In this document: positions 542 to 63,573 of the stretch, piece after piece
How the letters are laid out: the number at the start of each line of letters is the position of its first letter
How positions within the stretch are numbered: position 1 is the stretch's first letter
Source: Acinetobacter phage vB_AbaM_ME3
Sequence record: KU935715.1
Reading direction: 5' to 3' (one strand)
DNA: 64,000 bases
The notes under the pieces: generated by a model
Seen by the model: only the letters and a program-made list of their open reading frames with translations
Told to the model about the DNA's origin: nothing
Database searches by the model: none
Program-made: the position numbers and the translations under genes

Positions 542-808
542 TTAAGGGTTATAGTAAGGACTCGTAATAATATGTGCTAAGACTCTATTATGTTGGTCTA
601 CATCTAAGAAAGTATTAAATTTTTGATAATCACTATTACAACGAATTTTAAAATGTTCAAATAATTTTGAACCAAATTCAGTTCCAAAGATTTCATCAAA
701 AATCATAGGAGTTGCTTTATTTTGAAATTGAATAACACGTTTTTGAACTCTTGACCATATTTGAAGATCAAGCACTTCACTGTTTGTTAAACCATAATTA
801 TTTGACAT
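542..808 (-). CDS. hypothetical protein (88 aa)
   Basis: ORF-track ORF in the same orientation as the dense minus-strand gene array. Confidence 0.5.
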   Translation of the reverse strand: MSNNYGLTNSEVLDLQIWSRVQKRVIQFQNKATPMIFDEIFGTEFGSKLFEHFKIRCNSDYQKFNTFLDVDQHNRVLAHIITSPYYNP

Positions 809-918
809 CTGGAATTTCCTTTATATTCAATTTCAAAATAAAACTGAATAACTAACTAAGAGCCACGCTTAAATACAGAGTTAAAGATAACTCAAAAACG
901 GACTACGTGGATTTTATA

Positions 919-990
919 AACTATAAACTATCAACTGTAAACTATATTTAAACTGTGAACTTTGAACTGTAATCTATAAACTGTAAATGC
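919..990. repeat. degenerate tandem heptamer repeat (~10 units, plus-strand consensus NTNAACT)
   Basis: ATAAACT ATAAACT ATCAACT GTAAACT ... GTGAACT TTGAACT GTAATCT ATAAACT read directly. Lies just 3' of the tRNA-like element on the minus strand. Confidence 0.5.
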
Positions 991-994
991 AAGA

Positions 995-1067
995 TTGAGA
1001 AAATCAGATTCGAACTGATCACGGCCAGAAATTATTCTAGTGCTCTACCAACTGAGCTATTTCACAT
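995..1067 (-). ncRNA. tRNA-like element / possible tRNA pseudogene
   Basis: Reverse complement folds with a 7-bp acceptor stem (one mismatch), canonical D arm (TAGCTCAGTTGGTAGAGC) and T arm (ATCAG-TTCGAAT-CTGAT). The anticodon-arm position is a 6-bp stem with a 4-nt loop (CTAGAA-TAAT-TTCTGG) and no 7-nt anticodon loop. Confidence 0.4.
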
Positions 1068-1191
1068 GTGCAATGTTTTATCTATTTAGATACCAATATT
1101 CATTCATCATTTTTAAATACGTTGATGGTCGTATATCTTTATTAAGTATTTGCCTTAGTTAATTATTCAATCATAATGACTACCTAAGTAA

Positions 1192-1797
1192 TCAGTATTC
1201 GATCATTGTACTTAAATTGATTTCACTTAATGTAATATCAATTTCATTTTCTAAAAAGTCGATACGCTCTTGTAAGTTTTTAACAGTTTCTGTGATAGTC
1301 TTGGAGCTACCTGTTACAATACTTACGCCTAAAGTGTCTTGAAGTTGCTTATATACTTCTTCTTTTTGAGTAGCTTCAACATTAGATAGCTGACCTACAA
1401 TTGCTTGTTCTTGACGTTCTACTTCATTTTGAGCAGTAGATTGTTGACTTTTTAGAACACGCACATATTTCTTTTGAAGACTTAATGTTGATTTAATAGC
1501 TAGTAATTCAGTAATACTTACTTTACTTCCATTGAAATCAACTAAAGTTTCTAAATTCTTTTGAGCAATCTTAGTTTTAAGAGTACTAATTAATTTTAAG
1601 TTGCTTTCAACTGTATCAGTATCTGACTGGATATTAGTTAAAAGTTCTTGTTCGGTTTTGAAAGAACGATCTAAAGGACGTTTAGTTAAACCTTGAATAG
1701 TACTAACAAATTTACCATTAGAAAGTTTTTCATTAATAACGTTCTCAGCTTTTTTAATTAAAGTAAGAGCACGATGAATTGAAATTGTTTGAGTCAT
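1192..1797 (-). CDS. hypothetical coiled-coil protein (201 aa)
   Basis: Long ORF. Gln/Leu/Lys-rich heptad-like sequence. Confidence 0.55.
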   Translation of the reverse strand: MTQTISIHRALTLIKKAENVINEKLSNGKFVSTIQGLTKRPLDRSFKTEQELLTNIQSDTDTVESNLKLISTLKTKIAQKNLETLVDFNGSKVSITELLAIKSTLSLQKKYVRVLKSQQSTAQNEVERQEQAIVGQLSNVEATQKEEVYKQLQDTLGVSIVTGSSKTITETVKNLQERIDFLENEIDITLSEINLSTMIEY

Positions 1798-2326
1798 TTT
1801 AATATCTCATTAAAGTGTAATAATTAAAAATAAATCACATAAGGATGCTAATAGAAATCAGGAACGGTACAATCTAAGAACAACATTACATATAAGGACA
1901 AAATAATGAATTTTTTTTTGAAATTCTATTAGCATCCTTATGTGATTTAAAAAGGTTAAAAATATATGGAAGACAGATAGTGTGTTGTTACACCAAATGC
2001 TCTAAGGGTCTGTATATGCGTCTCTAGATACTTTATTTCCACGTTGTTTCTCTAGATTAAGTGTAAGGCTTCGCCCATCATACACGTTGCTCCAGCATAA
2101 CTTCTAGAGGTGTCGGGAGCGCAATCTAACATTCATGCCTTTACCTAACCGCCCATATTACTTTCTGCATTACATATACAACTGTACTGGTCCTTCCCCT
2201 GAGTTTCTACGTTTAGACATCTTTTGGAATTAGATACTTATTACGGATCACTCTTGCAACTCTTTAAAAGATGGCTACCTTCAGGCCAACTTCCTAACTG
2301 CCTTTCATATATTTTCAATCACACTG

Positions 2327-2554
2327 TTATTGAGTTTGTTGCCAAGAAACTACTTTAGGGTAAGTTTTTAAATCATCAAGAGCTTCATCGATAGTATTAA
2401 ATCTACATGGACATATATGACCTTTAGTAAGATTTATATACGAGTAAGTATTATCATTTTTATTTCGTAATATCATTACTTCAACAATACCATCTGTTCG
2501 TGTAATTTCTAATTTCAAAAGAATCCACCTTGATGTAATGTAACTAAGAAACAA
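2327..2554 (-). CDS. hypothetical protein (75 aa)
   Basis: ORF-track ORF, minus strand. Confidence 0.4.
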   Translation of the reverse strand: MFLSYITSRWILLKLEITRTDGIVEVMILRNKNDNTYSYINLTKGHICPCRFNTIDEALDDLKTYPKVVSWQQTQ

Positions 2555-2620
2555 ACTATTGCAACAACAATAAGTATTATGAAGATAACTCCTAATACCA
2601 TTAAAATAGTTGAAATCATA

Positions 2621-2956
2621 TTAAACTATTTCCTTAAAACGGATCCCAATTTCATTGTAGGCTTCTATATACGTTACAGCACCATCAATTTCAAAACCAA
2701 CTGGTTTTTCTACAATTTCAGTAATGAATCGAAGAAGCGTTCTAACATCAGTAATAGTAGTTAAATAAAAACCTTTTAATGGTAAACGAACTATCCATGT
2801 ATCAATAGAAGGGCATTTTTTGATACCTTGAATTAAGGTAACATTAATATCTTCTTCAATCATATTTTTTAAATTTACTAAACTAGCATTCATAGTAAAA
2901 GGTCTAGAAACTAATTGTTCTCTACATTCTTTTAAAACTTCTAAAGCTGTTTTCAT
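2621..2956 (-). CDS. hypothetical protein (111 aa)
   Basis: ORF-track ORF. Tightly followed by the next ORF. Confidence 0.5.
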   Translation of the reverse strand: MKTALEVLKECREQLVSRPFTMNASLVNLKNMIEEDINVTLIQGIKKCPSIDTWIVRLPLKGFYLTTITDVRTLLRFITEIVEKPVGFEIDGAVTYIEAYNEIGIRFKEIV

Positions 2957-2958
2957 AG

Positions 2959-3201
2959 TTACTCTTCAATATCTTGATATGGATGTAATACGTAATCTTC
3001 TAAAAAAGAATCTATTGAGTCCCATTCAAAGAAACAACATTGGTCACCTTCAGGACAAGTTGCAAAGATTTGATTTTTATACATACGAGCAATTAAAGAT
3101 GCATTAGCTACATCAAAATCCTCATCAGGGTATTTTAAAATAATCTCTTTACATTTAGATTTAATTATTTCTTTAGAATCAGATTCTTCATATATTTTCA
3201 T
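2959..3201 (-). CDS. hypothetical protein (80 aa, acidic, Cys-containing)
   Basis: ORF-track ORF separated by 2 nt from the downstream ORF. Confidence 0.5.
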   Translation of the reverse strand: MKIYEESDSKEIIKSKCKEIILKYPDEDFDVANASLIARMYKNQIFATCPEGDQCCFFEWDSIDSFLEDYVLHPYQDIEE

Positions 3202-3455
3202 AATTAAATCTCAATTAATTTATAAAATTACATTTACTGTTGGTTCTTTCGACAACACTTTTCGGATTTTATATGAAGATCGTATCAAAGGTTCTAGCTT
3301 CGATCCTCTGTTGTCATGCACCTCTAAACATTTGTGTGGTAACCCACTCACTGAACCTTATCAGCTTGAACTCAATGTGCCACCCAGAGATTACTCTGAC
3401 CTCATTTATGTTGTAAATGTAATTTTATATTTAAATAATAAGAGCCAAGTCTTCA

Positions 3456-3534
3456 CAAGAGGATGGATTCGAACCACCGACAACAGTAGGGATTTTACTG
3501 CCTACAATACTCTACCGACTGAGCTACTCTGCAA
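3456..3534 (-). ncRNA. tRNA-like element (aberrant cloverleaf)
   Basis: Reverse complement contains a canonical D arm (TAGCTCAGTCGGTAGAGT) and T arm (GGTGG-TTCGAAT-CCATC). Spacing between the D arm and the anticodon region is ~8 nt too long and the acceptor stem is imperfect. A 7-nt loop AAATCCC flanked by CAGTA/TACTG is possible. Confidence 0.4.
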
Positions 3535-4905
3535 TTTCCACTCTCTTATTATTTAGATGGTAAGAATATAAGTTAGTGTTAAGACGTTGATACATTAGGT
3601 ATTACCCTAACGCCAAGAGTTGAACTTGTTAAAAACCTTCTGTAACCCAACAACTATCTTTATTACTGGACAGTAATCATCTGAGATTATTAACCTATAC
3701 CGTATTCTTACCTCTAAATAATAATTAAAAGACATCTAATAACCTAACTTCAGATAAGGGTACTTACTCGATTATCATGAGACTCTACTAAATGTCTTTT
3801 AATTATTATTTAAAAGGTGTGAGGTACAACTCTCACAATGAACCATGTAGCCATTTTGGTTAGCGTCAAGCTGTATACAGCTTAGTTTCTCTAGTCAGCC
3901 CGCTTTAGGTTGTCCCTAATTGTGTGATATCAACACTACCATTTTTCTATCTTACGATAACACCAATGATCAAGTGCTTGTGGTACTAGAAGTCATTAAG
4001 GTGAATATGCCTTTATAGATCATACCAAATCTACAGGCCCATCACTCCCTTCAAATTTTATTACGCCACATCCTGTTTGGACTTACACCGTGTTGGATGT
4101 TATTTATCGGTAGAATTTGAGCCATTAACCAGAGCGCATTTATTAACTTATACTTTCATATAAGATTAGACCTTTTAGAGTGTCCTGATTTCTCAAGCTG
4201 AACTCTATTACCATCTCATATAAGTTGTCAGACTTATACTAACTACTTTTAGAATTACTCCTAATTTCGAGTGTCTCTACTATACAAAGGATAAATCCTT
4301 CTTAGCTATTATAACCATATGAAATAGAACCTCACTTAGAATTATAATATTTAGGTAATTGAGGAAAAACATGAGAATATAAAAGCATACTGCCATAATA
4401 TACGAGCCGTTAAGCCATCAGAATCGAACTGAGTCCTCTTTTATACCTCGATGCCCTTCATTATCGAAAAAGGGCTTTGGCACAATTGTGTTGTGCATCT
4501 CGTATCACTTGAGGTAATAACTCTTGGAATCTAGCAGAGGAGCGACCTCTCTTATTTTATATACCGATTGGATTCTTGTCTCGGTTTGTGGGTCTATTAC
4601 ATGTCATCGTTTCTCAGTTGACAGTGAGGGATCTACAAAAATTGGAATAGACTGACAATGGAGGTAATCATTAATCCCCTATTACAGAGATTAATCCTAT
4701 AGAATGCCTAAGAATTTCAGTTGCAATCTTACATTCAAAAGGACTTATATCAATTAGTATATTGGACAATATGTTCTGGAGACGGATTAGGCGTCTCACT
4801 CTTTTACTAAAAATTAGTAAACGCTTTTAGCCTCGGATTAAGAGACATTCCACTACATTTTAAGCTACAGACCTCAATACTTCCAATCATACTAAATTCT
4901 ATACA

Positions 4906-5346
4906 TTATATAGAAACTGTTTTACAAACTTTTGATAAAATAACATCATCAAAAGAATTCTTTGTTATTTGTTGCCACTTAATAGAAGAGGAATTTGCAT
5001 CTCTTACATATTTAGCATCTTTTGTAAATTGTACATACCTGACTATAGCAGATTTTCTTAAAACACAACTATAAATATTATAGATCAGTAATACATCACC
5101 ATCACTAGCAAAGTCATTAGTTGATGATTGTATATGCACAATAGCAGGAACTGAGTAAACTAAAGGACGAATTTCAACAATAGCTTTAGGATTTACATAG
5201 TACTTATCTGTACTTGTTTCTCCAACTTTATACCATGACTTTTCAGCTGTCATTAATTCGATATCACTTTGTACTAATTCTGCATTAGCTTGGATTGTTG
5301 TAAATAAGGAACAAGCCATTAAAGCTAAAATATAAAAATATTTCAT
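4906..5346 (-). CDS. secreted/periplasmic protein with N-terminal signal peptide (146 aa)
   Basis: MKYFYILALMACSLFTTIQANA: n-region, hydrophobic core and an AXA-like cleavage site. Confidence 0.5.
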   Translation of the reverse strand: MKYFYILALMACSLFTTIQANAELVQSDIELMTAEKSWYKVGETSTDKYYVNPKAIVEIRPLVYSVPAIVHIQSSTNDFASDGDVLLIYNIYSCVLRKSAIVRYVQFTKDAKYVRDANSSSIKWQQITKNSFDDVILSKVCKTVSI

Positions 5347-5882
5347 TATTTTAAATCCTTCTCTTCTATTAAGGTTATTCGTCTACATAATCCTTGAGAT
5401 TTATCTTTAGCATAAGTTTTAACTAATTTAAAATAAGATTTATTAGGAATCTTTGTAACTATAAATTCAAAGATTTTATTAAACCATATAGCTAAATATG
5501 CACATAAGATAAATATAAATATAATAGCTGAAAGAGTACCTACTACAAATTTAAATAAAAAACCCATTAATAAAAATGGATTAAAACTAGTTAATTCTCT
5601 TGTATCAAAGATTGTTATTGTTTTAACAGCATAAACTAAGATTACACTACATAAGAATAAATAAAGAATAGCTTTCAGTAGTGTAGAAAATAATGTACAA
5701 ACTGATCTTAAGCAACAAAGAGGAGACTTTGGGTTTTCTGGATCAAAACGAGTAACAATCCAACTTGTTAAGAAAAAGTTAGAACAAAAACAAAGAAATT
5801 TGTATGTCTTGCTATTAGCACTTAATTCAAAATTATCATTCATTATGGATGACCTCTTCCTACGATAGTTAAGAGAATCCAT
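5346..5882 (-). CDS. integral membrane protein (178 aa)
   Basis: Multiple long hydrophobic segments. ATGA start/stop overlap with the downstream ORF. Confidence 0.5.
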   Translation of the reverse strand: MDSLNYRRKRSSIMNDNFELSANSKTYKFLCFCSNFFLTSWIVTRFDPENPKSPLCCLRSVCTLFSTLLKAILYLFLCSVILVYAVKTITIFDTRELTSFNPFLLMGFLFKFVVGTLSAIIFIFILCAYLAIWFNKIFEFIVTKIPNKSYFKLVKTYAKDKSQGLCRRITLIEEKDLK

Positions 5883-5992
5883 GCAAAGAAGCCTAAAGCA
5901 CCACTTAGTACAAAACTTGCTATAATGATAAATTTGATAACACCTAACACATCTGATTTTGTCATGGAGTTTATCCTTAAAGGGAATATATG

Positions 5993-6042
5993 TTTAAAGG
6001 ATAGAAAGGAAACTGGAGCGAGAATCCTTTCTATCCTTTAAA
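5993..6042. repeat. 18-bp perfect inverted repeat (hairpin with 14-nt loop)
   Basis: tttaaaggatagaaagga ... tcctttctatcctttaaa read directly. Intergenic, downstream of the HD-domain gene on the minus strand. Confidence 0.6.
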
Positions 6043-6049
6043 CATACAC

Positions 6050-6613
6050 TTAAAAATATTTAATAAATTTACTTAAGTGTTTCTTTTTTATTTTAAAAGA
6101 AGTACTTTCAATTCCACCAAACATTTGACAATTAGCTAGTATCTCTGCCCAAGCAGTTAAATACAAACTAAATCCTATCTCTGATTGAATTAGTTCTTGT
6201 GCTTTTTCATCACTTGCTTTTAATATATGGAAATCCATATCATGTTTAACAAGATCATGACCTATTAAGAGATGAGGAAAGAGTTGTTTATATATCTCAT
6301 ATGACACTTGTGCATGATTGGGAAACTGTTGTTTACCTTCTTCATTTACAATTCTACAATAAGGCTTTCCTAAATCATGATAGATTTGATAATGCTTCAT
6401 TGTTTCATAATCTAAGAGAGTAATCCAATTCTTTTTATATACTTCTATAAGGGATTCAGGAACACCTTCAGGTACTACTCCTTTTTCTAAAGAAAGTAAT
6501 AGCTTTAAATATTCATTATTAACCATTAAACCATGTTGATACATATTGACATTTTCAAACTGATAACAGTTCTTCATATCTTTAAGTACCTTATCAAAAG
6601 TTAAGATCTCCAT
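6050..6613 (-). CDS. HD-domain phosphohydrolase
   Basis: Contains the H...HD-type motif (YQIYHDLGKP) and later His/Asp residues typical of the HD superfamily. Confidence 0.5.
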   Translation of the reverse strand: MEILTFDKVLKDMKNCYQFENVNMYQHGLMVNNEYLKLLLSLEKGVVPEGVPESLIEVYKKNWITLLDYETMKHYQIYHDLGKPYCRIVNEEGKQQFPNHAQVSYEIYKQLFPHLLIGHDLVKHDMDFHILKASDEKAQELIQSEIGFSLYLTAWAEILANCQMFGGIESTSFKIKKKHLSKFIKYF

Positions 6614-6900
6614 AACTGATATCTCCTCAATAATATTCTTTGGTCTTGAGTAAGAGGTTCAGTTCCGAACGCTGTGAGACCATAGTCCCAAGAAGGTTCG
6701 AAGAAAGATATAGTTTTGATACCTTTAGTTTCTAAATCTTTTATAGCTTTCTCTAATTGATATTGATTTTTAACACCAATCACTACTAAAGAACTAGGTT
6801 CAGATTGATCTCTGTCACCTAAATATATTCCTGCTTCTAAAGCAGCATGGCCAGCTTGAACTATTTGTTGTTCAACTGGAATATCTCTTCTAACAAACAC
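6601..6900 (-). CDS. peptidyl-tRNA hydrolase, PTH2 family
   Basis: QAGHAAL...VVIGVKNQYQLEKAIKDLETKGIKT...GLTAFGTEP matches the PTH2 pattern (QCSHAAL ... VVLK..SEEEL...LAIGPGP). Confidence 0.55.
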   Translation of the reverse strand: MFVRRDIPVEQQIVQAGHAALEAGIYLGDRDQSEPSSLVVIGVKNQYQLEKAIKDLETKGIKTISFFEPSWDYGLTAFGTEPLTQDQRILLRRYQLWRS

Positions 6901-6978
6901 ATAAGTATGTTTTTTATTTTCATGAATCTAAGTCATTAATTTTTCTCTATAAGTTAATATAAATTTTTGTGAGTTTAA

Positions 6979-7197
6979 TTACTTATTCCAAGTCTTAAAC
7001 AGTTTCAACACTTGAGGTTTAACTGAGTAAACAAAAGTACCATTAACAAACTTAGCATTAGTTAATTCATTCCAAAGCATAGTACTACTAAGATTATTAT
7101 TAACCATAAAATTATATAATTTTAAAACTTCCATATGTTCAGGAAGTTCACCATCTTTTTTAATTTGAGCTTTAATTCTGTTTAATACTTTACTCAT
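6979..7197 (-). CDS. hypothetical protein (72 aa)
   Basis: ORF-track ORF. Confidence 0.4.
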   Translation of the reverse strand: MSKVLNRIKAQIKKDGELPEHMEVLKLYNFMVNNNLSSTMLWNELTNAKFVNGTFVYSVKPQVLKLFKTWNK

Positions 7198-7347
7198 GGT
7201 ACCTCCTGTTTAAGATACTGGCGTTGCCAACTGGGAGTCTAACCCTAATAGAACTTCAATATTATAACCATGTCTAGAATATTATAATATCGTCTACAGC
7301 CTTTCTCCTTCGAATGGAGCTGTGCTACGTACACTATGACAACATTG

Positions 7348-7421
7348 TGGTCCAAAATCTGAGATTCGAACTCAGACGCAGGGTTTTAGGGACCCCTGTG
7401 CTACCATTACACCAATTCTGG
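7348..7421 (-). tRNA. tRNA with encoded 3' CCA; predicted anticodon CUA (amber-reading), with an unusual C at position 33
   Basis: Reverse complement CCAGAAT-TG-GTGT-AATGGTA-GCAC-A-GGGGT-CCCTAAA-ACCCT-GCGT-CTGAG-TTCGAAT-CTCAG-ATTTTGG-ACCA forms a clean cloverleaf in every arm. Confidence 0.6.
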
Positions 7422-7426
7422 AAAGG

Positions 7427-7639
7427 TTACTTCTCAGATGCAGCTAATATACCACAACAAAGAATTAAAGCTACAAACAAACTACCACCAAATTGGTAGA
7501 ATGGTGTAGCATAAGAAGGAGTAAAATAGTTCGTAAAAGCAATAGCAACAATAGCACTAATAACTACTAGTAAAACCATAGCTATGATTATGCCTACACC
7601 TATTAACATACCTTTAAGAAATTTCAATATGATTTTCAT
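7427..7639 (-). CDS. small membrane protein (70 aa, two TM helices)
   Basis: Highly hydrophobic sequence. Confidence 0.5.
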   Translation of the reverse strand: MKIILKFLKGMLIGVGIIIAMVLLVVISAIVAIAFTNYFTPSYATPFYQFGGSLFVALILCCGILAASEK

Positions 7640-7782
7640 TTTGTTTTATCTGATCTAAAGTATCTTCTTCAGCTTGCATGTTTACAAATAATTTAATCTG
7701 TTTTTGAAATATATCTTTCATATCATTTGAAACATTTTTAAAGTTAGGAATTGCTACAGGTTCATCATTCCAAATAGAATTT

Positions 7783-8013
7783 TTATTTGACATAAGCTAA
7801 AGCCTTAGTGATTGTAGATAAATGCATCTCTTCTACTTTTAATTTTAATTGTTTAATATCTTTTATTTCGTTAAAGAATTTAGAACGAATACCAGTAAAA
7901 CTAAAAAGAGTTGTATCTTTAGTTGTTTTATCAATATGTACAAATCCAAAAGATGTTTGAGCTGTAAAACTTAAAGGAGATTCAATCCACTTTATTTTAA
8001 TAACTTGAGCCAT
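7783..8013 (-). CDS. hypothetical protein (76 aa)
   Basis: ORF-track ORF. Confidence 0.45.
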   Translation of the reverse strand: MAQVIKIKWIESPLSFTAQTSFGFVHIDKTTKDTTLFSFTGIRSKFFNEIKDIKQLKLKVEEMHLSTITKALAYVK

Positions 8014-8900: not shown

Positions 8901-9167
8901 TTATTTTTCATAAGGAATAAATTTCCAACGATCTAACTTTCCATAATATTGCAACTGATGATTCTCTAGAATATAGACAAAGCCAGAATCTTCTTTTTCA
9001 CATTTATTTAAAAAAGATTGAATAGTTTTTGAACTTATAACTTTAGAAGGAATCTTACAATAATGAGCATTGTCATAATAACGATAGAAATGTAATTGTG
9101 GTTTTGAATAAATAACTTCATCATAAACACAATCTAACATTTCACTAAATAAGACAAATTTAAACAT
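8901..9167 (-). CDS. hypothetical protein (88 aa)
   Basis: ORF-track ORF overlapping the upstream gene by 8 nt. Confidence 0.5.
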   Translation of the reverse strand: MFKFVLFSEMLDCVYDEVIYSKPQLHFYRYYDNAHYCKIPSKVISSKTIQSFLNKCEKEDSGFVYILENHQLQYYGKLDRWKFIPYEK

Positions 9168-9822
9168 TTACATTACTCAGTTTTTCTATTTCATTCATAA
9201 CTCTACTAGGTGGAAGAGTTAGTACTAATTTAAAGTATTTTCTACAAGCTTTTAAAGTTTTAGGATGAATACTAAAATTCAATCTAGAAGCGAACCTATA
9301 GACTCTAAGAATTCTAAGATGATCTTCCAAAACCCTCTCTTCTGCTTTGCCATTAAAACGTATTACCTTATTGTTAAGATCATTCAACCCTTGTTTAGTT
9401 GGATCAAGTAATGTATTAGAAAATGGATCATAGTAGAGAGAATTAATAGTAATATCACGTCTAATAGAATCTGTTTCAATTGTTCCTATTGAAACAGTTT
9501 CAGGTCTTCTTCCGTCTGTATAAGTACCATCTTTACGGAACAAAGCAACTTCATATTGCTTTCCATGTTTAGAAGCAATTAACACTAAGAAAGACTTTCC
9601 AGCTTCATTAATATCCCAACCATTTTCTAGTAAAGATGATTCAATATTATCCAAGTTTCCATCTGTTACTAAATCAAAATCGTTAGGAATATCACCTAAT
9701 AATAAATCTCTAACACAACCACCAACTAAATATGTATTAGTGGAATGATTATTAATAATGAGAAAAAGTTGAAGAAGAGTTAAATCAGAGACAATAGGAC
9801 GAGTATTCATATTATTGACCAA
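9160..9822 (-). CDS. cca: tRNA nucleotidyltransferase (CCA-adding enzyme) / poly(A) polymerase head-domain protein
   Basis: GGCVRDLLLG...DFDLVT nucleotidyltransferase signature (GGxVRD...DxD). TTG start preceded by AGGAA. Confidence 0.75.
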   Translation of the reverse strand: MVNNMNTRPIVSDLTLLQLFLIINNHSTNTYLVGGCVRDLLLGDIPNDFDLVTDGNLDNIESSLLENGWDINEAGKSFLVLIASKHGKQYEVALFRKDGTYTDGRRPETVSIGTIETDSIRRDITINSLYYDPFSNTLLDPTKQGLNDLNNKVIRFNGKAEERVLEDHLRILRVYRFASRLNFSIHPKTLKACRKYFKLVLTLPPSRVMNEIEKLSNVNV

Positions 9823-13076: not shown

Positions 13077-14522
13077 TTACTCTTTAACTAATGCATAACG
13101 ATCTACTAATAGCGTTTCTTTCATAATAGCTTCAGGTGAAAACTCATCTAAAGTATTAGAACAAACTGCTTTTAATAGAGAAGGAGAAAAGCTAGATAAT
13201 AAACAAGCACCTGATTCATCATATTTAACAGGAAAGTTATTATTAGAAGGAGTGTTAAGAACCCAAAAGATTAATTTAGGACATTTTAATCCTGCTTCTT
13301 TAAACTTAACTTGAGCATCAACATATGCTGAGCTTTCACGAGAATTAAAATTAAACTGAGTGTCACTGAAGAAAACTAAATATTCAGGTAATTGATCTGA
13401 AGAAATATTATTAGAAACTACTAGATCTAATAGTAGTTTAAAGACACCTTCAACATTTGTACTATAACCAACTTGACTTTGAGCAATAAGATCATAACGC
13501 TCTTTTAAAGTTTTACAATCTTTGAGATCAACAAAAGAAGGATGATCTGCAAATGTAGTTACAAGGTTTTTAAATGGACCTTCAATACGTTCACTGATGT
13601 AAGCACCTAAAGTAATTGCAATATGTTTATATGTTGCATTACCTACAGCAGGAGCTTCCATTGAACCACTTAAATCAACTACAGGAAGAATCGATAAACC
13701 TTCTTTAATTAAATTAGGAAAGCTATTCCACTGAGCTTCTACAACAGGATTAGGTTCGAAATAAGGAGAATAACGAGACCCTAATATTGAATAAACTTCA
13801 GAAATTTCATGAAGAAATAATGTAGACGAATTTAAAGTTGCAGTTCCCTCACTCACTTTATTAATAAAATCATTAAAACGATCTGAGTCTTTAGACAAGA
13901 ATGTATTTTTATAACGATTAAAAGCTTTAGAAGGAACTGTACTATAATCTATTTCAGCGATACGATGCTCACACAATAAACGTTCAGTAACTTTAGCTCG
14001 TAAAGGGACAATTAACTGTCTTAATTCTTTAGGAGTGACCTTAAGATAAGAACGTAACATAGATGCAACATTGCCTTTCAAAGGTAACCACTTTGCAACT
14101 AATATCTGAGTTTCAGGATTTTTCAAATGTTCAGCTAATAGTCGAATAATCTTTTTCTTAATACGAAGATCAACATCACATTCTACTAAATTAAATAAAT
14201 CAGGATAATACCCTAACTCTACAATTTTAGATAAAAGATTAGTTTTTAAAAATACATCAATATCTATATGAGCTAAATGAATCATACAGAGATTAAATGA
14301 ATTACGAATACCTTTACCTTGTCTAATATCACGAGAATTCAAAAGATTACGAATTGCTAAATCTTTGTCTTCTAGATAAGCTTTTCGAAAATCTAAAATA
14401 GCTTCTTGAGAATAGTTAGGATCACCTAATTTAACAAAGAAATCTAAATTATGAGAAGCAGTACTAGAATAAGCTACTGCCCCATTAGTGGTTTGTGTTT
14501 TTAAAGCTGTTGCTGCAAACAT
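13077..14522 (-). CDS. vWA (MIDAS) domain protein with Ro60/TROVE-like architecture (possibly DUF2828-type)
   Basis: C-terminal vWA with MIDAS: VVDLSGSM ... GYSTNVEGVF ... LVFFSDTQ. A ~280-aa helical N-terminal region precedes the vWA domain, as in Ro60/Rsr. The TROVE assignment is inference. Confidence 0.5.
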   Translation of the reverse strand: MFAATALKTQTTNGAVAYSSTASHNLDFFVKLGDPNYSQEAILDFRKAYLEDKDLAIRNLLNSRDIRQGKGIRNSFNLCMIHLAHIDIDVFLKTNLLSKIVELGYYPDLFNLVECDVDLRIKKKIIRLLAEHLKNPETQILVAKWLPLKGNVASMLRSYLKVTPKELRQLIVPLRAKVTERLLCEHRIAEIDYSTVPSKAFNRYKNTFLSKDSDRFNDFINKVSEGTATLNSSTLFLHEISEVYSILGSRYSPYFEPNPVVEAQWNSFPNLIKEGLSILPVVDLSGSMEAPAVGNATYKHIAITLGAYISERIEGPFKNLVTTFADHPSFVDLKDCKTLKERYDLIAQSQVGYSTNVEGVFKLLLDLVVSNNISSDQLPEYLVFFSDTQFNFNSRESSAYVDAQVKFKEAGLKCPKLIFWVLNTPSNNNFPVKYDESGACLLSSFSPSLLKAVCSNTLDEFSPEAIMKETLLVDRYALVKE

Positions 14523-49141: not shown

Positions 49142-50209
49142 TTATCTCAAAATAGCTATAGCTTGATAAGGTGAAATATTTGAATCAATCTCTATTTCAA
49201 CTTCTAATGGATCTGCAAGAGATTTCATAAAATGATAAACAGAAGCTGAAGAACCTGAACAAATAATTAATCGAGGTTTTCGACGAAGTAATGCACGAGT
49301 GCATTCACTAATCGTTGGCTTGATCTTTAGTTCATCTTGAACATTATAAGTTTCAGTAACATGATCAATAACAAAATTTGTACGCCGATCACATTGCTGC
49401 TTCAGATAAGAAGTAACCTTAGCAGGAATACTATCAAATTTATCTAATACTTCAGTAATTTGATCAAGAAAGTAGTTAGTTACATCATACTCTTGAAGAT
49501 TCTGATATATTGCACATGTGTGATATTTACCTTTATCTGAAATTACAGAACGAGATAATAACCCACTAATTACACTATTAAGAATTCCAAAAGGAATAAT
49601 TTCATCAGTGTCTGTAGCATAGATATCAGAGATATGATTAATGTCATTTAAGACTACTAAACGAAAAGGTTTCATACCTAAAGGTAAACCTAACTGTCTC
49701 CAACTTTCACGCAACTGATTGAAAATTGTTCCTTTACCAGTCCAACCATCTACAAAGAATAGATCACATTCTGCACTATGTTTTTCGATAATATGATTAA
49801 ATGCTAATTCATCTAATCCAAAATCTCGAATAATAGATAGTGCATAATGGTGTACTTTAATCTTATAACGTAGTTCTAGAGAACGTTTAATTAATACACC
49901 TAAAGGTAGTCCAGCTCGAATTAAACTAGCTAATACAATATTGTTTTTATCTTTTGATTGTTCAAAAATTGCATCAGCTAATCCATTAATCCATTTACCT
50001 AAACTAATACGATATGAGTAAGAACTCATTAAACGATTAAATTCAGATAATTGTTCACGAGATGGAGCATCTTCAGATAACAGAAAAGATGAATAATGTT
50101 CACCAGAAGCAATACGAGCTTCTTTTTCATCTTTAGTGATAAATGTATGATCTGTAGAAATATTTAATAAAAGGGTAACATCTTCTGGTTTAAATGTACT
50201 AAAAGTCAT
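49142..50209 (-). CDS. phosphoribosyltransferase-like protein (Ter-linked PRTase type)
   Basis: DLFFVDGWTGKGTI resembles the type I PRTase PRPP-binding loop (hhhhDDhhTTGxT). Confidence 0.45.
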   Translation of the reverse strand: MTFSTFKPEDVTLLLNISTDHTFITKDEKEARIASGEHYSSFLLSEDAPSREQLSEFNRLMSSYSYRISLGKWINGLADAIFEQSKDKNNIVLASLIRAGLPLGVLIKRSLELRYKIKVHHYALSIIRDFGLDELAFNHIIEKHSAECDLFFVDGWTGKGTIFNQLRESWRQLGLPLGMKPFRLVVLNDINHISDIYATDTDEIIPFGILNSVISGLLSRSVISDKGKYHTCAIYQNLQEYDVTNYFLDQITEVLDKFDSIPAKVTSYLKQQCDRRTNFVIDHVTETYNVQDELKIKPTISECTRALLRRKPRLIICSGSSASVYHFMKSLADPLEVEIEIDSNISPYQAIAILR

Positions 50210-50925
50210 GATAATAACTCTTTAATAATTTGAACATTATCTTTAGTAGGAGTCATTAAGAAATCACATTCTAACATAAAGAACAGATCAGATTTTGAAT
50301 CACCTATACCAATAGTAACTACACCTGGATGTAGCTCTAACATCTTTTTCTTAATGAAACGAACAGCATCTGTTTTAGGTTTTAATGTTTTAGGGAATAT
50401 AGAAAAACCAGTACCATTAATATACAACTCAAGCCCTTTGTGTTGCTTTAGAATAGAATTTAATTTTAATAAATCCGTAGACTTGTTGTTAATGTTCCCT
50501 TCAATATAAAACCCATAAGTTTTATGAGTAATTAATTTTGAATGAACATTATACAAATGAAGGTACTTAATACTTTCTCTTAATTCATTCTGACTACTAG
50601 ATACTTTACCAATAAGGGTGTCAGTAAATTCTGGAATCAATTTATTATCATAGGTATAAATAAATACACCATAATTACAAACTTTAAATGAGTTAAAGTT
50701 AAAAGTTGATTCAACACGTTTTAAACTTTCAATAGATCTAGCAGTTACAGGAATAACACCACTAGAGCCTGAGTTAAATTCATTAAATAAAGAAATTTGT
50801 TTAGGGGTAGTGCAAATATTACTACCAGAATCTGATGTATAAACAACGTGACGTGGTTCATCAGACTCTAGATGGCGTTCAGTTTGAATGAAAGTTAAAT
50901 CGAGATCACAAAAGCTTAAAAACAT
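50206..50925 (-). CDS. HAD-superfamily hydrolase
   Basis: Motif I FCDLDLTF (DxDxT). Motif IV GIGDSKSD (GDxxxD). Confidence 0.55.
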   Translation of the reverse strand: MFLSFCDLDLTFIQTERHLESDEPRHVVYTSDSGSNICTTPKQISLFNEFNSGSSGVIPVTARSIESLKRVESTFNFNSFKVCNYGVFIYTYDNKLIPEFTDTLIGKVSSSQNELRESIKYLHLYNVHSKLITHKTYGFYIEGNINNKSTDLLKLNSILKQHKGLELYINGTGFSIFPKTLKPKTDAVRFIKKKMLELHPGVVTIGIGDSKSDLFFMLECDFLMTPTKDNVQIIKELLS

Positions 50926-52033
50926 TTACATTATTCCATGCAACCAATGATTCTATTAATGAACTTTGAGGAGCATCTTCGATAGATAAACACACAGAAT
51001 CAAGTCCTTTATTTAATAGGTCATCGAAATTATATAGATATGATTCCATTGTGGAATCATAAAGATTAGGAAGTACAAGTTTAGTCTTAATAATAGTATT
51101 AAGCTTTAACGGAGAAGATGAAATAGACAACAATACTGAATCTTTTCCAGTATTATTAAATTTATTTATACAATTTAGAAGAGAAGCAAAGATTAATTCA
51201 TCATAATAAATCTGAATATCAGAACTATTGAAGTACTTAGGATCTTTACATTTAGAGACAATGTCTGACAAAGAGTCAAACGAAGGTAATCTGAAATGAT
51301 CATTAGTTACATTTGTTAATGATACATTATCAGATTTTTTATAAGGAAGATGTGGTACTGGAACATTCGAATCTTGTTCCCAAGTATAAGTACCTTTAAC
51401 TAACGAATAAGTCTTTAGTTCAACATCATCTACTGTTAAATTTGAAGACCAATCTGTTAAAGAGAGAACAATAACTTTTCTTAAACAAGGTAATTTTTCT
51501 TTAAGAGATTCAACTAAATTCTTAATAGTATTACCTGTAGTGACTTCATCATCTACAATAATTAAAGTATTTGTTTGTTCTAAATGCTCATTAACAGATT
51601 TGTCAAAAGACTTATAGATATAATGATTAGGGAAATGACTATGAGGTTCTACAAATTCAGCAAGAACAGGAGCAGATAATGTTCTTCGTGTAGTTTGTAG
51701 ACGTAGAATATTAACCCAATCTTTAGATAATTGGTTATGAACTAAATAACCTAACCCTAAACCAGTTTCTGCTAAAGAGAGCAGAGAAATTTTATTATTT
51801 TCACCTTCTAAGTCTTTAGACTCAATTTGTTCACTAAGAGACTTAGCTATAGAGTTTAATATACTAAAAGGTGTAGGGGTATAACGACCAATTACTTTAG
51901 ATACGAACATGAACTGACGTTTAGGATTTAAACGTTCAGCTAAAGAGCAAATACTATCAAAACGATAATGTTCAGTTTCGAAATTCAGAGATAATTTTCC
52001 AGTATTTAAATTATACTCTTTAAAATTTGACAT
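50906..52033 (-). CDS. phosphoribosyltransferase (type I PRTase fold)
   Basis: LIIVDDEVTTGNT is a canonical PRPP-binding motif. Confidence 0.6.
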   Translation of the reverse strand: MSNFKEYNLNTGKLSLNFETEHYRFDSICSLAERLNPKRQFMFVSKVIGRYTPTPFSILNSIAKSLSEQIESKDLEGENNKISLLSLAETGLGLGYLVHNQLSKDWVNILRLQTTRRTLSAPVLAEFVEPHSHFPNHYIYKSFDKSVNEHLEQTNTLIIVDDEVTTGNTIKNLVESLKEKLPCLRKVIVLSLTDWSSNLTVDDVELKTYSLVKGTYTWEQDSNVPVPHLPYKKSDNVSLTNVTNDHFRLPSFDSLSDIVSKCKDPKYFNSSDIQIYYDELIFASLLNCINKFNNTGKDSVLLSISSSPLKLNTIIKTKLVLPNLYDSTMESYLYNFDDLLNKGLDSVCLSIEDAPQSSLIESLVAWNNVNVFKLL

Positions 52034-52036
52034 GTC

Positions 52037-52336
52037 TTAATCCTTTTTAGGATAGATATATTGTTGGTATTGAGCAATTGCAGCAGCTGAAGAGAAACCT
52101 TTATCAAGAAGAATACATCGAACAGTATCTTCAATATTCTCCAGACTAACCATAACATCTTGTAAAGATAAAGGTGGTTTTGGTTCTTCATCGAAGTCTT
52201 GATAATCTAATTGAGATTCTATCTTTTCAGCAGATCCTTTCTTTTCTTTTTCAGAAATATCTAATAAGGACTCTTCAATATGATGCAGGCTCATTAAGAT
52301 GTCTAAAATGAGTTTTGTATTATCTTGGTGTGACAC
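52037..52336 (-). CDS. hypothetical acidic protein (99 aa)
   Basis: ORF-track ORF. Confidence 0.45.
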   Translation of the reverse strand: MSHQDNTKLILDILMSLHHIEESLLDISEKEKKGSAEKIESQLDYQDFDEEPKPPLSLQDVMVSLENIEDTVRCILLDKGFSSAAAIAQYQQYIYPKKD

Positions 52337-52420
52337 TTTAAATCCTTCTGAAAAAGAAAAGGACAGAATATTTCATCTGTCCATCTCTTTGTTATTTATT
52401 CAATTTAGAAATTTTAAATC

Positions 52421-53032
52421 TTATTCGGTTTTAGCACCATAAGATTGTAATACTTCTTCTAAGCCGTTATCAAATCCAAGATCGATTTTCTTAACTCGCC
52501 AACCACCATCATGACGATAGATTTCAGCAACATTAACAGCTTTAGATGCAGCATGATCTTCAGTCAAATCAATTTTGAGTGAATCCATACCATCAACATT
52601 TACATCAACGTAAGCATTTTCAACTTGACCAAATGTGATACCAAGATTCTTTTCATCATGGATACTCATAAGTACCATGATACATCCAATTTCGGGTGGT
52701 AGGGTTTCTAAATTTAGATTACCATTTTCATCATAACCGTCACCAGAACCATCACGATTGTCTTTATCAAGAACAATACTACCACAAGCCGATTTTAACA
52801 AGTTATAGAAAACAATTCCTGGATTTCCATCAGACTGTGTTACAAGATTTTTAGATTTTGAATCTGCTAATAAAATAAAACTTAAATCTAAGTCATGTTT
52901 AACATTAGATTGACGAGCAGAATCCCAACCACAGCCTACATGTACACTTTTTAAAGATACAGCAGAACCATCAGGTTTAGCTAAACGAATAGGTACACCT
53001 TTAGTTAAAGGGATAACATGTTGAGTAGTCAT
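52421..53032 (-). CDS. terD: TerD-family stress protein
   Basis: VHVGCGWD ... DLDLSFILL ... DNRDGSGDGYDENG: canonical TerD motifs in a ~200-aa protein. Confidence 0.75.
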   Translation of the reverse strand: MTTQHVIPLTKGVPIRLAKPDGSAVSLKSVHVGCGWDSARQSNVKHDLDLSFILLADSKSKNLVTQSDGNPGIVFYNLLKSACGSIVLDKDNRDGSGDGYDENGNLNLETLPPEIGCIMVLMSIHDEKNLGITFGQVENAYVDVNVDGMDSLKIDLTEDHAASKAVNVAEIYRHDGGWRVKKIDLGFDNGLEEVLQSYGAKTE

Positions 53033-53042
53033 AATAAAATCC

Positions 53043-53393
53043 TTATGAAATTGTAAAACGAATAACAGGAGGAAGACCTGTTACTGAATAATTTATAATT
53101 GGTTCACGTTGGTTAGTTTTAATGTGTCTATAAGATGTAAGCTTTTTAACTAACCTTTCATGTTCCCATTTTTTAAACTTAGTCTCAGACTGCTCTAACA
53201 TCTGAGAAATATAAGGCGCCAAAAAACTTCCTGTATCTTTTAAGCTAAGGAGTTCTTTTCTGTACTCTTGAAGAGTTGACGCATATACTAAAATGAGCCT
53301 ACCTGACTGAGTACGAATTAAAGTTCCTTTATCAGTAATAAATAATTCGTACTCAAGTTGAGGTAGTTGTTTATTATGCTGCAAGTGTTCCAT
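53043..53393 (-). CDS. hypothetical protein (116 aa)
   Basis: ORF-track ORF. Confidence 0.5.
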   Translation of the reverse strand: MEHLQHNKQLPQLEYELFITDKGTLIRTQSGRLILVYASTLQEYRKELLSLKDTGSFLAPYISQMLEQSETKFKKWEHERLVKKLTSYRHIKTNQREPIINYSVTGLPPVIRFTIS

Positions 53394-63190: not shown

Positions 63191-63573
63191 TACAAGCCGA
63201 AAACTTGTACCAGCAGCATTATCTGCATCTATAGTTATTAACTATACGTCGAGACTATATCTTAATTTATACATATACTTATAGAATGATTATGTTATCT
63301 TTATCATTCAATATATGTATAAACCACAAGCACTTCGGAAACTCTTGTTCCCTACTCCTTCCTACAGGATAGTCGTTGAACCTTACTCTTAGGTAAAACC
63401 CTTAGAGTCTTGGCTGCTGATATTGCATTTACTCAGCGTAATTATAATAACTAATAGATAATTACACATGAATCTTCACACTTTTTAAACATTCACGCTT
63501 GCTATTTCTAGCTACGTTGTAGTGTATGAAGCTTTAGCCTTTCCCAGCAATTCACTTGTGTTACGACAGATGT

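What the first reader, a model, noticed from the sequence alone, without database searches (positions are those of the whole stretch)
995..1067. tRNA-like elements with intact acceptor/D/T arms but no anticodon loop (Y-RNA-like tRNA mimics?)
At 995-1067 the minus strand folds into a cloverleaf with textbook D arm and T arm (GTTCGAATC) and a 7-bp acceptor stem. Where the anticodon arm should be there is a 6-bp stem capped by a tetraloop (CTAGAA-TAAT-TTCTGG), so the element cannot decode. A second element at 3456-3534 also has perfect D and T arms but ~8 extra nucleotides before the anticodon region and a poor acceptor stem. A third T-arm-like motif (CAG-TTCGATT-CTG) lies at about 4428-4447. tRNA mimics without anticodons are the hallmark of bacterial YrlA-type Y RNAs that partner with Ro60. 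They could alternatively be decayed tRNA genes.
Basis: seen in the sequence. Interest (0 to 1): 0.6.

Follow-up and report, generated by a model that had tools for sequence, protein, structure and literature searches.

The report
Phage tRNA mimics beside a Ro60-like gene
A large phage carries three conserved RNAs that fold like tRNA but cannot read codons, and it also encodes a hidden relative of the Ro60 RNA-surveillance protein, so this is probably a viral Ro60/Y-RNA-type system and not a set of dead tRNA genes.

Summary
Element 1 (995-1066, minus strand) is a full cloverleaf whose anticodon arm is one base short: 5 bp plus a 6-nt loop. ARAGORN calls it 'tRNA-???' and Rfam tRNA scores it 45 bits. 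Element 2 (3454-3532) has canonical D and T arms, a bulged acceptor stem and an oversized anticodon arm that differs between relatives. It sits on a 13-bp stem formed by its flanks. None of the three is decaying, because related phage contigs keep their helices through compensatory substitutions.

The third motif (4428-4447) is the most informative. It is the T arm of a circularly permuted tRNA-like domain (4376-4447), with the order stem, T arm, small hairpin, D arm, stem. That is the YrlA topology. A covariance model finds 24 such elements (91.7% of cells paired against 64.7% when shuffled; 13 of 14 pairs covary).

The window also encodes a DUF2828/DUF7788 protein (13077-14522) whose predicted fold matches Ro60. 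This protein family lies in phage tRNA arrays, and permuted tRNA mimics are enriched next to it.

It does not fit the topology of elements 1 and 2, but it is plausible for the third element. No binding to the Ro60-like protein has been shown.

The parts
995..1066 (-). Element 1: a tRNA-shaped RNA of normal topology. It has 7 acceptor positions (U3.U70 mismatch, A73, no CCA), canonical D and T arms, and an anticodon arm of 5 bp plus a 6-nt loop (AUAAUU).
   Evidence: ARAGORN 'tRNA-???'; Rfam tRNA 45 bits; fold. Orthologues in L012, L017, L290, L292 and L019 give 94% paired cells and 5 pairs changed on both sides.
3432..3555 (-). Element 2 with its flanking stem. The tRNA-like core is 3454-3532: canonical D and T arms, an acceptor stem with a 1-nt bulge at position 69, and an enlarged anticodon arm. 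A 13-bp helix formed by the leader (AAAUAAUAAGAG) and the trailer (CUCUUAUUAUUU) encloses the core.
   Evidence: Rfam tRNA 30 bits; fold with flanks. In L017 the anticodon arm is replaced by 5 bp plus a 6-nt loop, GAUCCA. L290 and L292 carry pair-preserving changes in the acceptor stem, a G-C to A-U change in the T stem, and a G-C, A.C, A-U series at the inner flank pair.
4376..4447 (-). Circularly permuted tRNA-like domain (pTL).
   Evidence: Descriptor hits with zero control hits; model R1 gives 41.4 bits, E 7e-10. Compensatory changes occur in all three helices in L012, L015, L016, L017, L019, L290 and L292.
3556..4905 (-). A 1.35-kb stretch without ORFs that contains the pTL. It is richer in G+C than its surroundings, holds many hairpins, and is conserved with modular insertions in relatives. 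It is either one large structured RNA or a string of smaller ones.
   Evidence: ORF list and gaps; composition. Alignments to L012, L015, L016, L017, L290 and L292 show compensatory hairpin changes. No Rfam match.
13077..14522 (-). Ro60-like protein: a helical-repeat ring followed by a vWA domain with a DxSxS MIDAS motif. Pfam assigns it DUF2828 and DUF7788.
   Evidence: Pfam. AlphaFold2 model with pLDDT 86 and pTM 0.81. Foldseek top hits are Ro60 1yvr (E 3e-9, TM 0.62), Thermus phage Ro60 9kop/9l5y and Deinococcus Rsr 2nvo. D283, S285 and S287 are invariant.
9160..9822 (-). Short homologue of the CCA-adding enzyme / poly(A) polymerase head domain. It could add CCA to the tRNA mimics, which encode none.
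   Evidence: Pfam PolyA_pol 4e-31 and PolyA_pol_RNAbd; conserved in L015, L016, L290, L291 and L292.
7351..7421 (-). An ordinary-looking tRNA with anticodon CUA (an amber suppressor type). It is the only canonical tRNA in this region.
   Evidence: ARAGORN; Rfam 54.7 bits; conserved in L015, L016, L290 and L292.

Best explanation
The window is the dispersed tRNA and RNA-repair region of a large, AT-rich phage, probably of Acinetobacter. It contains three tRNA-derived structured RNAs that keep the L-shaped tRNA body but have lost a readable anticodon. Each lost it in a different way.

1. Element 1 has a 6-nt anticodon loop.
2. Element 2 has a free-evolving, oversized anticodon arm, a bulged acceptor stem and an outer helix made by its flanks.
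3. The third is circularly permuted: the acceptor end is closed by a hairpin and the anticodon stem is replaced by a 10-bp closing helix. This is the architecture of bacterial YrlA Y RNAs.

The same phage encodes a divergent Ro60-like ring protein.

The mechanism I commit to is as follows. These RNAs are non-decoding tRNA mimics. At least the permuted one acts as a Y-RNA-type partner of the Ro60-like protein, presenting a tRNA-shaped module to tRNA-binding enzymes or nucleases while the protein handles damaged or misfolded RNA during infection. This would be part of the phage's response to host attack on tRNAs.

Shown here: the structures, their conservation and covariation, the Ro60-like fold, and the genomic association of the protein family with tRNA arrays and with permuted tRNA mimics.

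Inferred: that the RNAs are expressed as discrete species, that they bind the Ro60-like protein, and what the complex does.
For: Structure and selection.
- Element 1: two fully compensatory T-stem changes in L012 and further ones in L017 and L019; 94% of cells paired; 5 pairs changed on both sides among 4 sequences.
- Element 2: pair-preserving changes in the acceptor stem, T stem and flank stem.
- Permuted domain: 24 sequences, 91.7% paired against 64.7% in shuffles, 13 of 14 pairs changed on both sides, covariation score 0.765 against 0.258, slid controls at most 0.20. The MFE fold of the L290 copy gives the four-way junction unaided.

No decoding.
- The 6-nt loop is conserved in five contigs.
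- The loop sequence differs between orthologues: AUAAUU against CUAAGU.
- The anticodon arm of element 2 is wholly replaced between the window and L017.

Ro60 link.
- The predicted fold matches Ro60.
- At least 587 viral loci carry the family. Of the 80 fetched, 61 carry tRNAs, and all 585 of those tRNAs are on the gene's strand.
- Relatives place Pnkp, Hen1, Tpt1, a 2H phosphoesterase and PTH2 next to the gene.
- Permuted tRNA mimics lie 0.3-6 kb upstream of the gene on the same strand in 10 viral loci, and 6.7 kb downstream in L288. That is 11 of 82 loci, against 3 of 120 control tRNA loci, Fisher p = 0.004.
- Those RNAs share a covarying basal stem and a conserved ACAGCAA bulge, which gives them a Y-RNA-like shape.

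Precedent.
- YrlA has the T, AS, D order. Yrn1 has a 5-bp 'anticodon' stem with a 6-nt loop (PMC4201824).
- Phage Ro60 binds phage-encoded Y-like RNAs (PMC12135203).
Against: - There is no expression or binding data.
- In the window the Ro60-like gene is 8.6 kb from the permuted domain and 12 kb from element 1, with many genes between them.
- The window's permuted domain lacks the ACAGCAA and basal-stem module seen next to Ro60-like genes elsewhere. It scores only 41 bits with the family model, below some tandem-tRNA junctions.
- No GNCGAAN0-1G motif lies at any of the three elements.
- Permuted mimics also occur in tRNA arrays where no Ro60-like gene was seen in the fetched flank, for example in the slot after the 200-aa gene family. 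The enrichment could therefore reflect shared residence in tRNA arrays.
- The compared loci are not independent: several are near-identical.
- Elements 1 and 2 have normal tRNA topology, and simpler roles such as processing signals or decoys fit them equally well.
Confidence: 0.55

Rival explanations
1. Processing punctuation. The tRNA-shaped elements are kept only as RNase P and RNase Z cleavage sites. These sites would cut the long early transcript into separate mRNAs and release the neighbouring structured RNAs, as mascRNA does for MALAT1. Decoding and Ro60 play no part.
For: All three lie between genes or next to large non-coding RNAs on one strand. Element 2 abuts the 1.35-kb non-coding stretch on its 5' side and a 200-nt structured RNA on its 3' side. 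The conserved RNA family at 1980-2294 is followed by tRNA-like elements in other phages. M. smegmatis YrlA is cut by RNase P (PMC4201824).
Against: RNase P needs the acceptor and T arms and the elbow, yet the anticodon stem of element 1 and the 10-bp closing stem of the permuted domain are also maintained by compensatory changes. The window's permuted domain has only a 3-bp acceptor-like hairpin, which makes a poor RNase P substrate. This role does not exclude the Y-RNA role.
Confidence: 0.25
2. Nuclease decoys. The mimics soak up host anticodon nucleases of the PrrC, RloC or PARIS type. They offer the tRNA body with a loop that cannot be cut productively, and so protect real tRNAs.
For: The loops are truncated or fast-evolving on a conserved body. 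tRNAs in the same genomic slot of other phages have unusual loops, with A34 or C33/A33. 6-nt-loop tRNA-likes recur in other phage arrays, with a compensatory stem change between L034 and L058. RNA-repair genes cluster nearby.
Against: No host nuclease has been identified. A decoy would have to compete with abundant host tRNA. The idea does not explain the permuted form or the flank stems. No precedent for an RNA decoy of this kind turned up in the literature searches.
Confidence: 0.2
3. Element 1 is still a working tRNA. Its 6-nt loop either decodes unconventionally (frameshifting or two-base reading) or is repaired or edited to 7 nt after transcription.
For: The tRNA body is perfect and the phage encodes a CCA-adding enzyme homologue. 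The syntenic slot holds real or near-real tRNAs in other phages. The phage encodes an RNA ligase.
Against: The loop sequence changes between close orthologues in a way that would change the amino acid (AAU-like against AAG-like). The distant orthologue in L019 is also irregular, with a 5-nt loop or a 3-bp stem. No natural decoding by 6-nt loops was found in the literature searched.
Confidence: 0.08
4. These are decaying tRNA pseudogenes with no function.
For: The anticodon arms are defective. The acceptor stem of element 2 is poor. Rfam scores are below those of normal tRNAs.
Against: There are compensatory double substitutions in the T, acceptor, anticodon and closing stems. The elements are conserved across contigs whose neighbouring genes differ by 10-50%. 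The non-coding stretch is more conserved than the adjacent coding sequence.
Confidence: 0.03

Closest known systems
YrlA (bacterial and phage Y RNA-like A; Chen et al. 2014, PMC4201824)
   Same: The permuted domain at 4376-4447 has the same order (V region, T arm, acceptor-like stem-loop, D arm) closed by a helix. It keeps the tRNA tertiary nucleotides U8, A14, G18G19, G53 and the UUCGAUU loop. It is on the same strand as a Ro60 homologue.
   Different: There is no GNCGAAN0-1G motif. It lies 8.6 kb from the Ro60-like gene, not within 4 kb. It is embedded in a 1.35-kb non-coding stretch. The partner protein is a DUF2828-type Ro60-like protein that Pfam's TROVE model does not detect. Elements 1 and 2 are not permuted at all.
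Deinococcus radiodurans Yrn1
   Same: A tRNA-like part in the normal order, with a 5-bp 'anticodon' stem and a 6-nt loop, carried on a long helix made by the RNA ends. Element 1 shares the 6-nt loop. Element 2 shares the long outer helix.
   Different: Yrn1 lacks a full D arm and has a defined Ro-binding bulged helix. Element 1 has no outer helix, and neither element shows the Ro-binding motif.
Thermus phage phiLo Ro60 with Yrl1/Yrl2 (PMC12135203)
   Same: A phage-encoded Ro60 homologue together with phage-encoded structured RNAs. The structure of that protein is among the best fold matches (9kop, 9l5y).
   Different: The phiLo RNAs lie directly upstream of the gene and are defined by a 5'-3' stem with a CGAA-bearing bulge. 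tRNA mimicry was not the criterion there. Sequence identity to the window protein is about 14-15%.
Circularly permuted tRNA genes of red and green algae (from memory: Soma et al. 2007)
   Same: The 3' half of the tRNA is encoded before the 5' half, with the acceptor ends joined by an intervening sequence.
   Different: Those genes are processed into normal decoding tRNAs with an intact anticodon loop. Here the helix that replaces the anticodon arm is 10 bp and has no anticodon loop.
Non-decoding pseudo-tRNAs such as Bacillus cereus tRNA-Other (PMC3399842) and the tRNA-like domain of tmRNA
   Same: A tRNA-derived body that cellular tRNA enzymes recognise but that is not used for ordinary decoding.
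   Different: tRNA-Other keeps a 7-nt loop. tmRNA carries an mRNA module and a G3.U70 alanine identity, whereas element 1 has U3.U70.

Membership tests
Canonical decoding tRNA | Cloverleaf that reaches the Rfam tRNA gathering score | tested here: met
   Element 1 scores 45.0 bits and element 2 scores 30.0 bits; the gathering score is 29.
Canonical decoding tRNA | 5-bp anticodon stem with a 7-nt loop (U33, purine 37) carrying a stable anticodon | tested here: not met
   Element 1 has a 6-nt loop in all five contigs, and the loop sequence varies. Element 2 has 20 nt where the model expects 13, and its arm is replaced in L017.
YrlA-type Y RNA | Permuted order: T arm, acceptor-like stem-loop, D arm, closed by a helix formed by the flanks | tested here: met
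   Met for 4376-4447 only. Elements 1 and 2 have the normal tRNA order and fail this test.
YrlA-type Y RNA | GNCGAAN0-1G motif near the 5' end (the putative Ro60 contact) | tested here: not met
   A regex scan of both strands found the motif only at 3246-3253 and 2069-2075, which lie in other non-coding RNAs and not at the three elements.
YrlA-type Y RNA | Encoded within about 4 kb of the Ro60 gene on the same strand | tested here: inconclusive
   The strand is the same, but the distance is 8.6 kb for the permuted domain and 12 kb for element 1. In 5 viral loci related permuted mimics lie 0.3-1.4 kb upstream of the Ro60-like gene.
YrlA-type Y RNA | Physically bound by Ro60; carries tRNA modifications | not testable with these tools
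   This needs immunoprecipitation and modification mapping.
Ro60 / TROVE protein (for ORF 13077-14522) | Ring of helical repeats followed by a vWA domain with a MIDAS motif | tested here: met
   The AF2 model (pLDDT 86) aligns over its full length to 1yvr, 9kop, 9l5y, 1yvp, 2nvo and 9nf8. DxSxS (D283, S285, S287) is invariant.
Ro60 / TROVE protein (for ORF 13077-14522) | Sequence match to the Pfam TROVE domain or to solved Ro60 chains | tested here: not met
   Pfam at E up to 1 returns only DUF2828 and DUF7788. phmmer against PDB sequences finds nothing at E up to 10.
GOLLD / ROOL large phage RNAs (for 3556-4905) | Match to the Rfam GOLLD or ROOL models | tested here: not met
   No hit at E up to 5 in 800-8000. 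The same search method does find GOLLD in locus L004.

The most novel reading that the evidence does not exclude
Large phages carry a widespread, unrecognised Ro60-like protein family (DUF2828/DUF7788) that works with anticodon-less tRNA mimics. The mimics come in three forms: permuted, loop-truncated and stem-capped. Together they form a viral RNP that counters host tRNA-cleaving defences, either by sequestering the nucleases or by channelling cut tRNAs to the phage's repair enzymes. The different architectures in one genome would be alternative solutions to the same requirement: a tRNA body with no cleavable anticodon.
Probability: 0.2. Interest if true: 0.8.

Novelty: new variant of a known kind. 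Interest (0 to 1): 0.62.

Why it matters
Y RNAs and Ro60 are well studied in animals and a few bacteria, but what the tRNA-like module is for remains open. This window offers a compact viral case. It has a Ro60-like protein from a very large phage family that sequence annotation does not label as Ro60. That family sits inside tRNA arrays and beside RNA-repair enzymes, and comes with several kinds of anticodon-less tRNA mimic.

If the link holds, it ties Ro60/Y-RNA biology to the phage-host conflict over tRNA integrity. It also gives testable RNA-protein pairs and adds a structured RNA family, with strong covariation, that matched no Rfam model here. Finally, it shows that 'odd tRNA' calls in phage genomes should not be dismissed as pseudogenes.

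Tried and rejected
- Rfam at gathering and permissive thresholds. No Y RNA, YrlA, GOLLD, ROOL, RNase P or tmRNA model matched any window element. Only tRNA and one group I intron matched.
- Decayed pseudogenes: rejected on covariation.
- Searches of annotated phage genomes with 8 kb of DNA, with the 1183-aa ORF and with the 111-aa ORF. There is no close annotated relative. The only strong match is an unverified Acinetobacter phage record that covers another part of the window.
- The search for related loci with the single 201-aa protein found nothing. An alignment was needed. The 48-sequence Ro60-like alignment was too diverse to seed a scan and had to be reduced.
- The pattern GTTCGATTC-N-ATATTATGG in viral contigs. 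It returned only ordinary tRNA 3' ends followed by ATG start codons, so the scan was wasted. I reused those loci as a control set.
- I checked by eye whether the conserved RNA at 1980-2294 is RNase P RNA, tmRNA or a group I intron. There was no convincing match and no Rfam support, so I left it unexplained.
- The GNCGAA motif as a Ro60 site is absent from the three elements.
- The ACAGCAA bulge of the canonical permuted RNAs is absent from the window's non-coding region.
- The promoter and terminator scan did not help to delimit transcripts.

Full report
**Context**

The window is AT-rich (about 28% G+C). Nearly all of its ORFs are small and lie on the minus strand. It has no close annotated relative. 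One gene matches Rak2/GAP32-like jumbo phages, where it sits in a dispersed tRNA region. Positions 51.2-60.9 kb are 99% identical to an unverified Acinetobacter phage record.

Non-coding gaps of 150 nt or more are concentrated in the first 7.4 kb. That stretch holds all three elements of the finding, one normal tRNA with anticodon CUA (7351-7421), and several further structured non-coding regions.

**Checking the observation**

- Element 1: ARAGORN-1066(-) a 72-nt 'tRNA-???' with a two-base anticodon. Rfam's tRNA model gives 45 bits.
- Element 2: Rfam gives 30 bits at 3454-3532(-), with 20 nt where 13 are expected. ARAGORN misses it.
- The third hairpin, CUCAG-UUCGAUU-CUGAU, is at 4428-4447(-).

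All three descriptions are accurate, to within 2 nt for element 2.

**Related sequences**

Exact-protein look-ups and homologue searches recovered contigs at graded distances.

- L012, L013, L014, L017, L290 and L292: 82-99% DNA identity across the region.
- L015 and L016: cover the Ro60-like gene and the start of the large non-coding stretch.
- L019-L022 and L288-L289: neighbouring proteins 38-55% identical.

**Element 1**

The 16-nt anticodon arm is present in all five close contigs.

- Between the window and L012 the T stem changes AUCAG/CUGAU to ACAAG/CUUGU. In L017 it is AUAAG/CUUAU. All pairs are kept.
- In L017 the anticodon stem changes U.G to C-G and A-U to G.U.
The conserved form is therefore 5 bp plus a 6-nt loop.
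- In the more distant L019-L022 the same slot, about 150 nt after the homologous 205-aa gene, holds an element with an identical T arm, covarying acceptor pairs, G3.U70 and an anticodon region that is again irregular.
- On the four-sequence alignment 94% of cells pair, and 5 pairs have changes on both sides. Slid controls pair 37-50%.

The roughly 200-aa neighbour gene belongs to a family that sits inside tRNA arrays in 65 viral loci, usually with a tRNA just downstream. Several of those slot tRNAs have odd loops, with A34 or C33/A33. Other phage arrays contain further 6-nt-loop tRNA-likes, one pair of which shows a compensatory stem change.

**Element 2**

- The anticodon arm is entirely different between the window (28 nt between the D and T arms) and L017 (GUCCC-GAUCCA-GGGAC, again with a 6-nt loop).
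- The variable base at position 69 (U or G) is the predicted bulge.
- In L290 and L292 the 5' acceptor strand changes GCAGAG to AUAGAG. This turns C-G into U.G and G.U into A-U.
- L292 changes T-stem pair 49:65 from G-C to A-U.
- With its flanks the element folds as a 13-bp outer helix (3555 to 3432), an internal loop and the cloverleaf.
- The innermost outer pair runs G-C, A.C, A-U across the window, L290 and L292.

**The third motif**

Reading on from the T arm, the sequence gives a short hairpin, then UC/UA and a D arm (GUAU-AUUAUGGCAGU-AUGC). A 10-bp helix (GGUAUAAAAG/CUUUUAUAUU) closes the whole. This is a circularly permuted tRNA-like domain.

A simple descriptor for this architecture found it in the window, L012, L015, L016, L017 (twice), L019 and L288. 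It gave no hit in reversed-sequence controls. A relaxed version and a covariance model (R1) added two groups of elements:

- elements next to Ro60-like genes in viral contigs;
- elements in the slot just after the 200-aa gene in L035, L065, L077, L079, L085 and L087. This is the same slot that holds element 1 in the window.

On 24 sequences 91.7% of cells pair, against 64.7% in shuffles. Thirteen of 14 pairs have double changes, and the covariation score is 0.765 against 0.258. The alignment was fitted to the model, which flatters it.

Independent support comes from L290. There the closing stem changes AA/UU to GG/CC, two T-stem pairs swap, and an unguided MFE fold returns the four-way junction.

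The order V, T, acceptor-like hairpin, D is the one that defines YrlA (PMC4201824).

**The protein**

ORF 13077-14522 carries DUF2828 and DUF7788. It has no sequence match to TROVE or to PDB chains. An AlphaFold2 model built on 48 homologues (pLDDT 86) matches Ro60 structures over its full length: 1yvr at E 3e-9 and TM 0.62, then Thermus phage phiLo Ro60 and Deinococcus Rsr. The vWA MIDAS residues are invariant.

- The family has at least 587 loci in IMG/VR.
- In the 80 loci fetched, 61 contain tRNAs, and all 585 tRNAs are on the gene's strand.
- Relatives place Pnkp, Hen1, Tpt1, a 2H phosphoesterase, PTH2, NADAR and NUDIX beside it.
- The window adds a CCA-adding enzyme homologue and an RNA ligase.
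- No paper in the searchable library connects DUF2828 with Ro60. One jumbo-phage survey mentions TROVE proteins in a few phages.

**Linking RNA and protein**

Permuted mimics scoring at least 50 bits occur in 11 of 82 Ro60-like loci. Ten lie 0.3-6 kb upstream of the gene on the same strand, and the L288 copy lies 6.7 kb downstream.

- Among control tRNA loci of similar tRNA density, 1 of 100 reaches that score. By any criterion the control count is 3 of 120, Fisher p = 0.004.
- Seven of the eleven were in the model's training set, and some loci are near-duplicates. The statistic is therefore only indicative.
- Those RNAs share a larger design: a 6-bp covarying basal stem, a conserved ACAGCAA on the 5' strand, an A-rich internal loop and a 5-bp closing stem. 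This is Y-RNA-like in outline.
- The window's copy lacks that module and sits in a 1.35-kb non-coding stretch.

**Interpretation**

The pseudogene reading is excluded. Ordinary decoding is very unlikely. The YrlA label fits the third element by topology but fails the motif and distance criteria. Elements 1 and 2 resemble Yrn1 only loosely.

Three observations point to a Ro60/Y-RNA-type system serving tRNA surveillance or repair during infection:

- a Ro60-like gene is present in the same phage;
- RNA-repair genes cluster around that gene family;
- three different ways of removing the anticodon occur in one genome, and permuted mimics occupy the same genomic slot in other phages.

Processing-signal and nuclease-decoy roles remain live alternatives, and they are not mutually exclusive with this one. 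Expression and binding are untested.

Noticed in passing
window 1980-2294 (-): A conserved structured RNA of about 315 nt. Its 5' end reads GGAAGUUGGCCUGAAGGUAGCCAUCUUUUAAAGAGUU and its 3' end reads UUUGGUGUAACAACACAC. Ralstonia phage RSP15 (in an unannotated gap beside its tRNA genes) and 7 IMG/VR contigs share the two ends, with a middle of variable length. In other phages tRNA-like elements often follow it. No Rfam match.
   Followed up: partly
window 3222-3428 (-): A discrete RNA of about 200 nt closed by a perfect 16-bp terminal stem, with MFE z-score -3.8. It contains GUCGAAAG, which matches the YrlA GNCGAAN0-1G motif, plus two further CGAA sites. It is absent, together with the adjacent 80-aa ORF, from relative L017.
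   Followed up: partly
window 1830-1960 (-): A long hairpin with 26-nt perfectly complementary arms (1831-1856 and 1924-1949), lying directly after the conserved RNA and before the 201-aa gene. It may be a terminator or a processing site. It is conserved in all relatives.
   Followed up: no
window 900-985 (-): A run of ACAGUU/AAAGUU repeats immediately 3' of element 1. Similar AAAGUU-rich repeats follow the permuted tRNA mimics that occupy the same slot in L035, L065, L079 and L087.
   Followed up: no
window 7351-7421 (-): A normal tRNA with anticodon CUA (amber suppressor type), conserved in relatives. ORFs appear intact under the standard code, so its role is unclear.
   Followed up: no
window 63229-63620 (-): A group I intron (Rfam 51 bits; gathering score 50) next to ORF 62114-63190.
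   Followed up: no
window 49142-54486 (-): A tellurite-resistance-type gene set: StiP protease with a PELOTA domain, a PRTase, and a DUF475/TerC membrane protein. The region 51.2-60.9 kb is 99% identical to the unverified record 'Acinetobacter phage PBAB25'.
   Followed up: no
window 1192-1797 (-) and loci L023-L087: The 201-aa protein (PHROG 1491, labelled 'tail fiber protein') belongs to a family found inside tRNA arrays in 65 viral loci, with a tRNA or tRNA mimic just downstream. That placement makes the label look doubtful.
   Followed up: partly
L289 9821-9929, 19706-19825, 21101-21219; L019 5780-5945: Related phages carry further aberrant tRNA-like genes. Some are 109-120 nt long with large insertions or giant variable arms, and one lies directly upstream of the Ro60-like gene. 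Others are D-arm-less or otherwise distorted but encode CCA.
   Followed up: partly
L004 4799-5223; L166 9364-9687: A GOLLD RNA lies inside a 26-tRNA phage array that also carries the 1980-2294-type RNA. A phage-encoded tmRNA lies 2 kb downstream of a Ro60-like gene.
   Followed up: no
L015 2837-7911 and L016 2018-7917 (about window 16.6-21.7 kb): A tandem array of about 15-17 paralogous ORFs of 104-127 aa, with no Pfam match, upstream of the Ro60-like gene.
   Followed up: no
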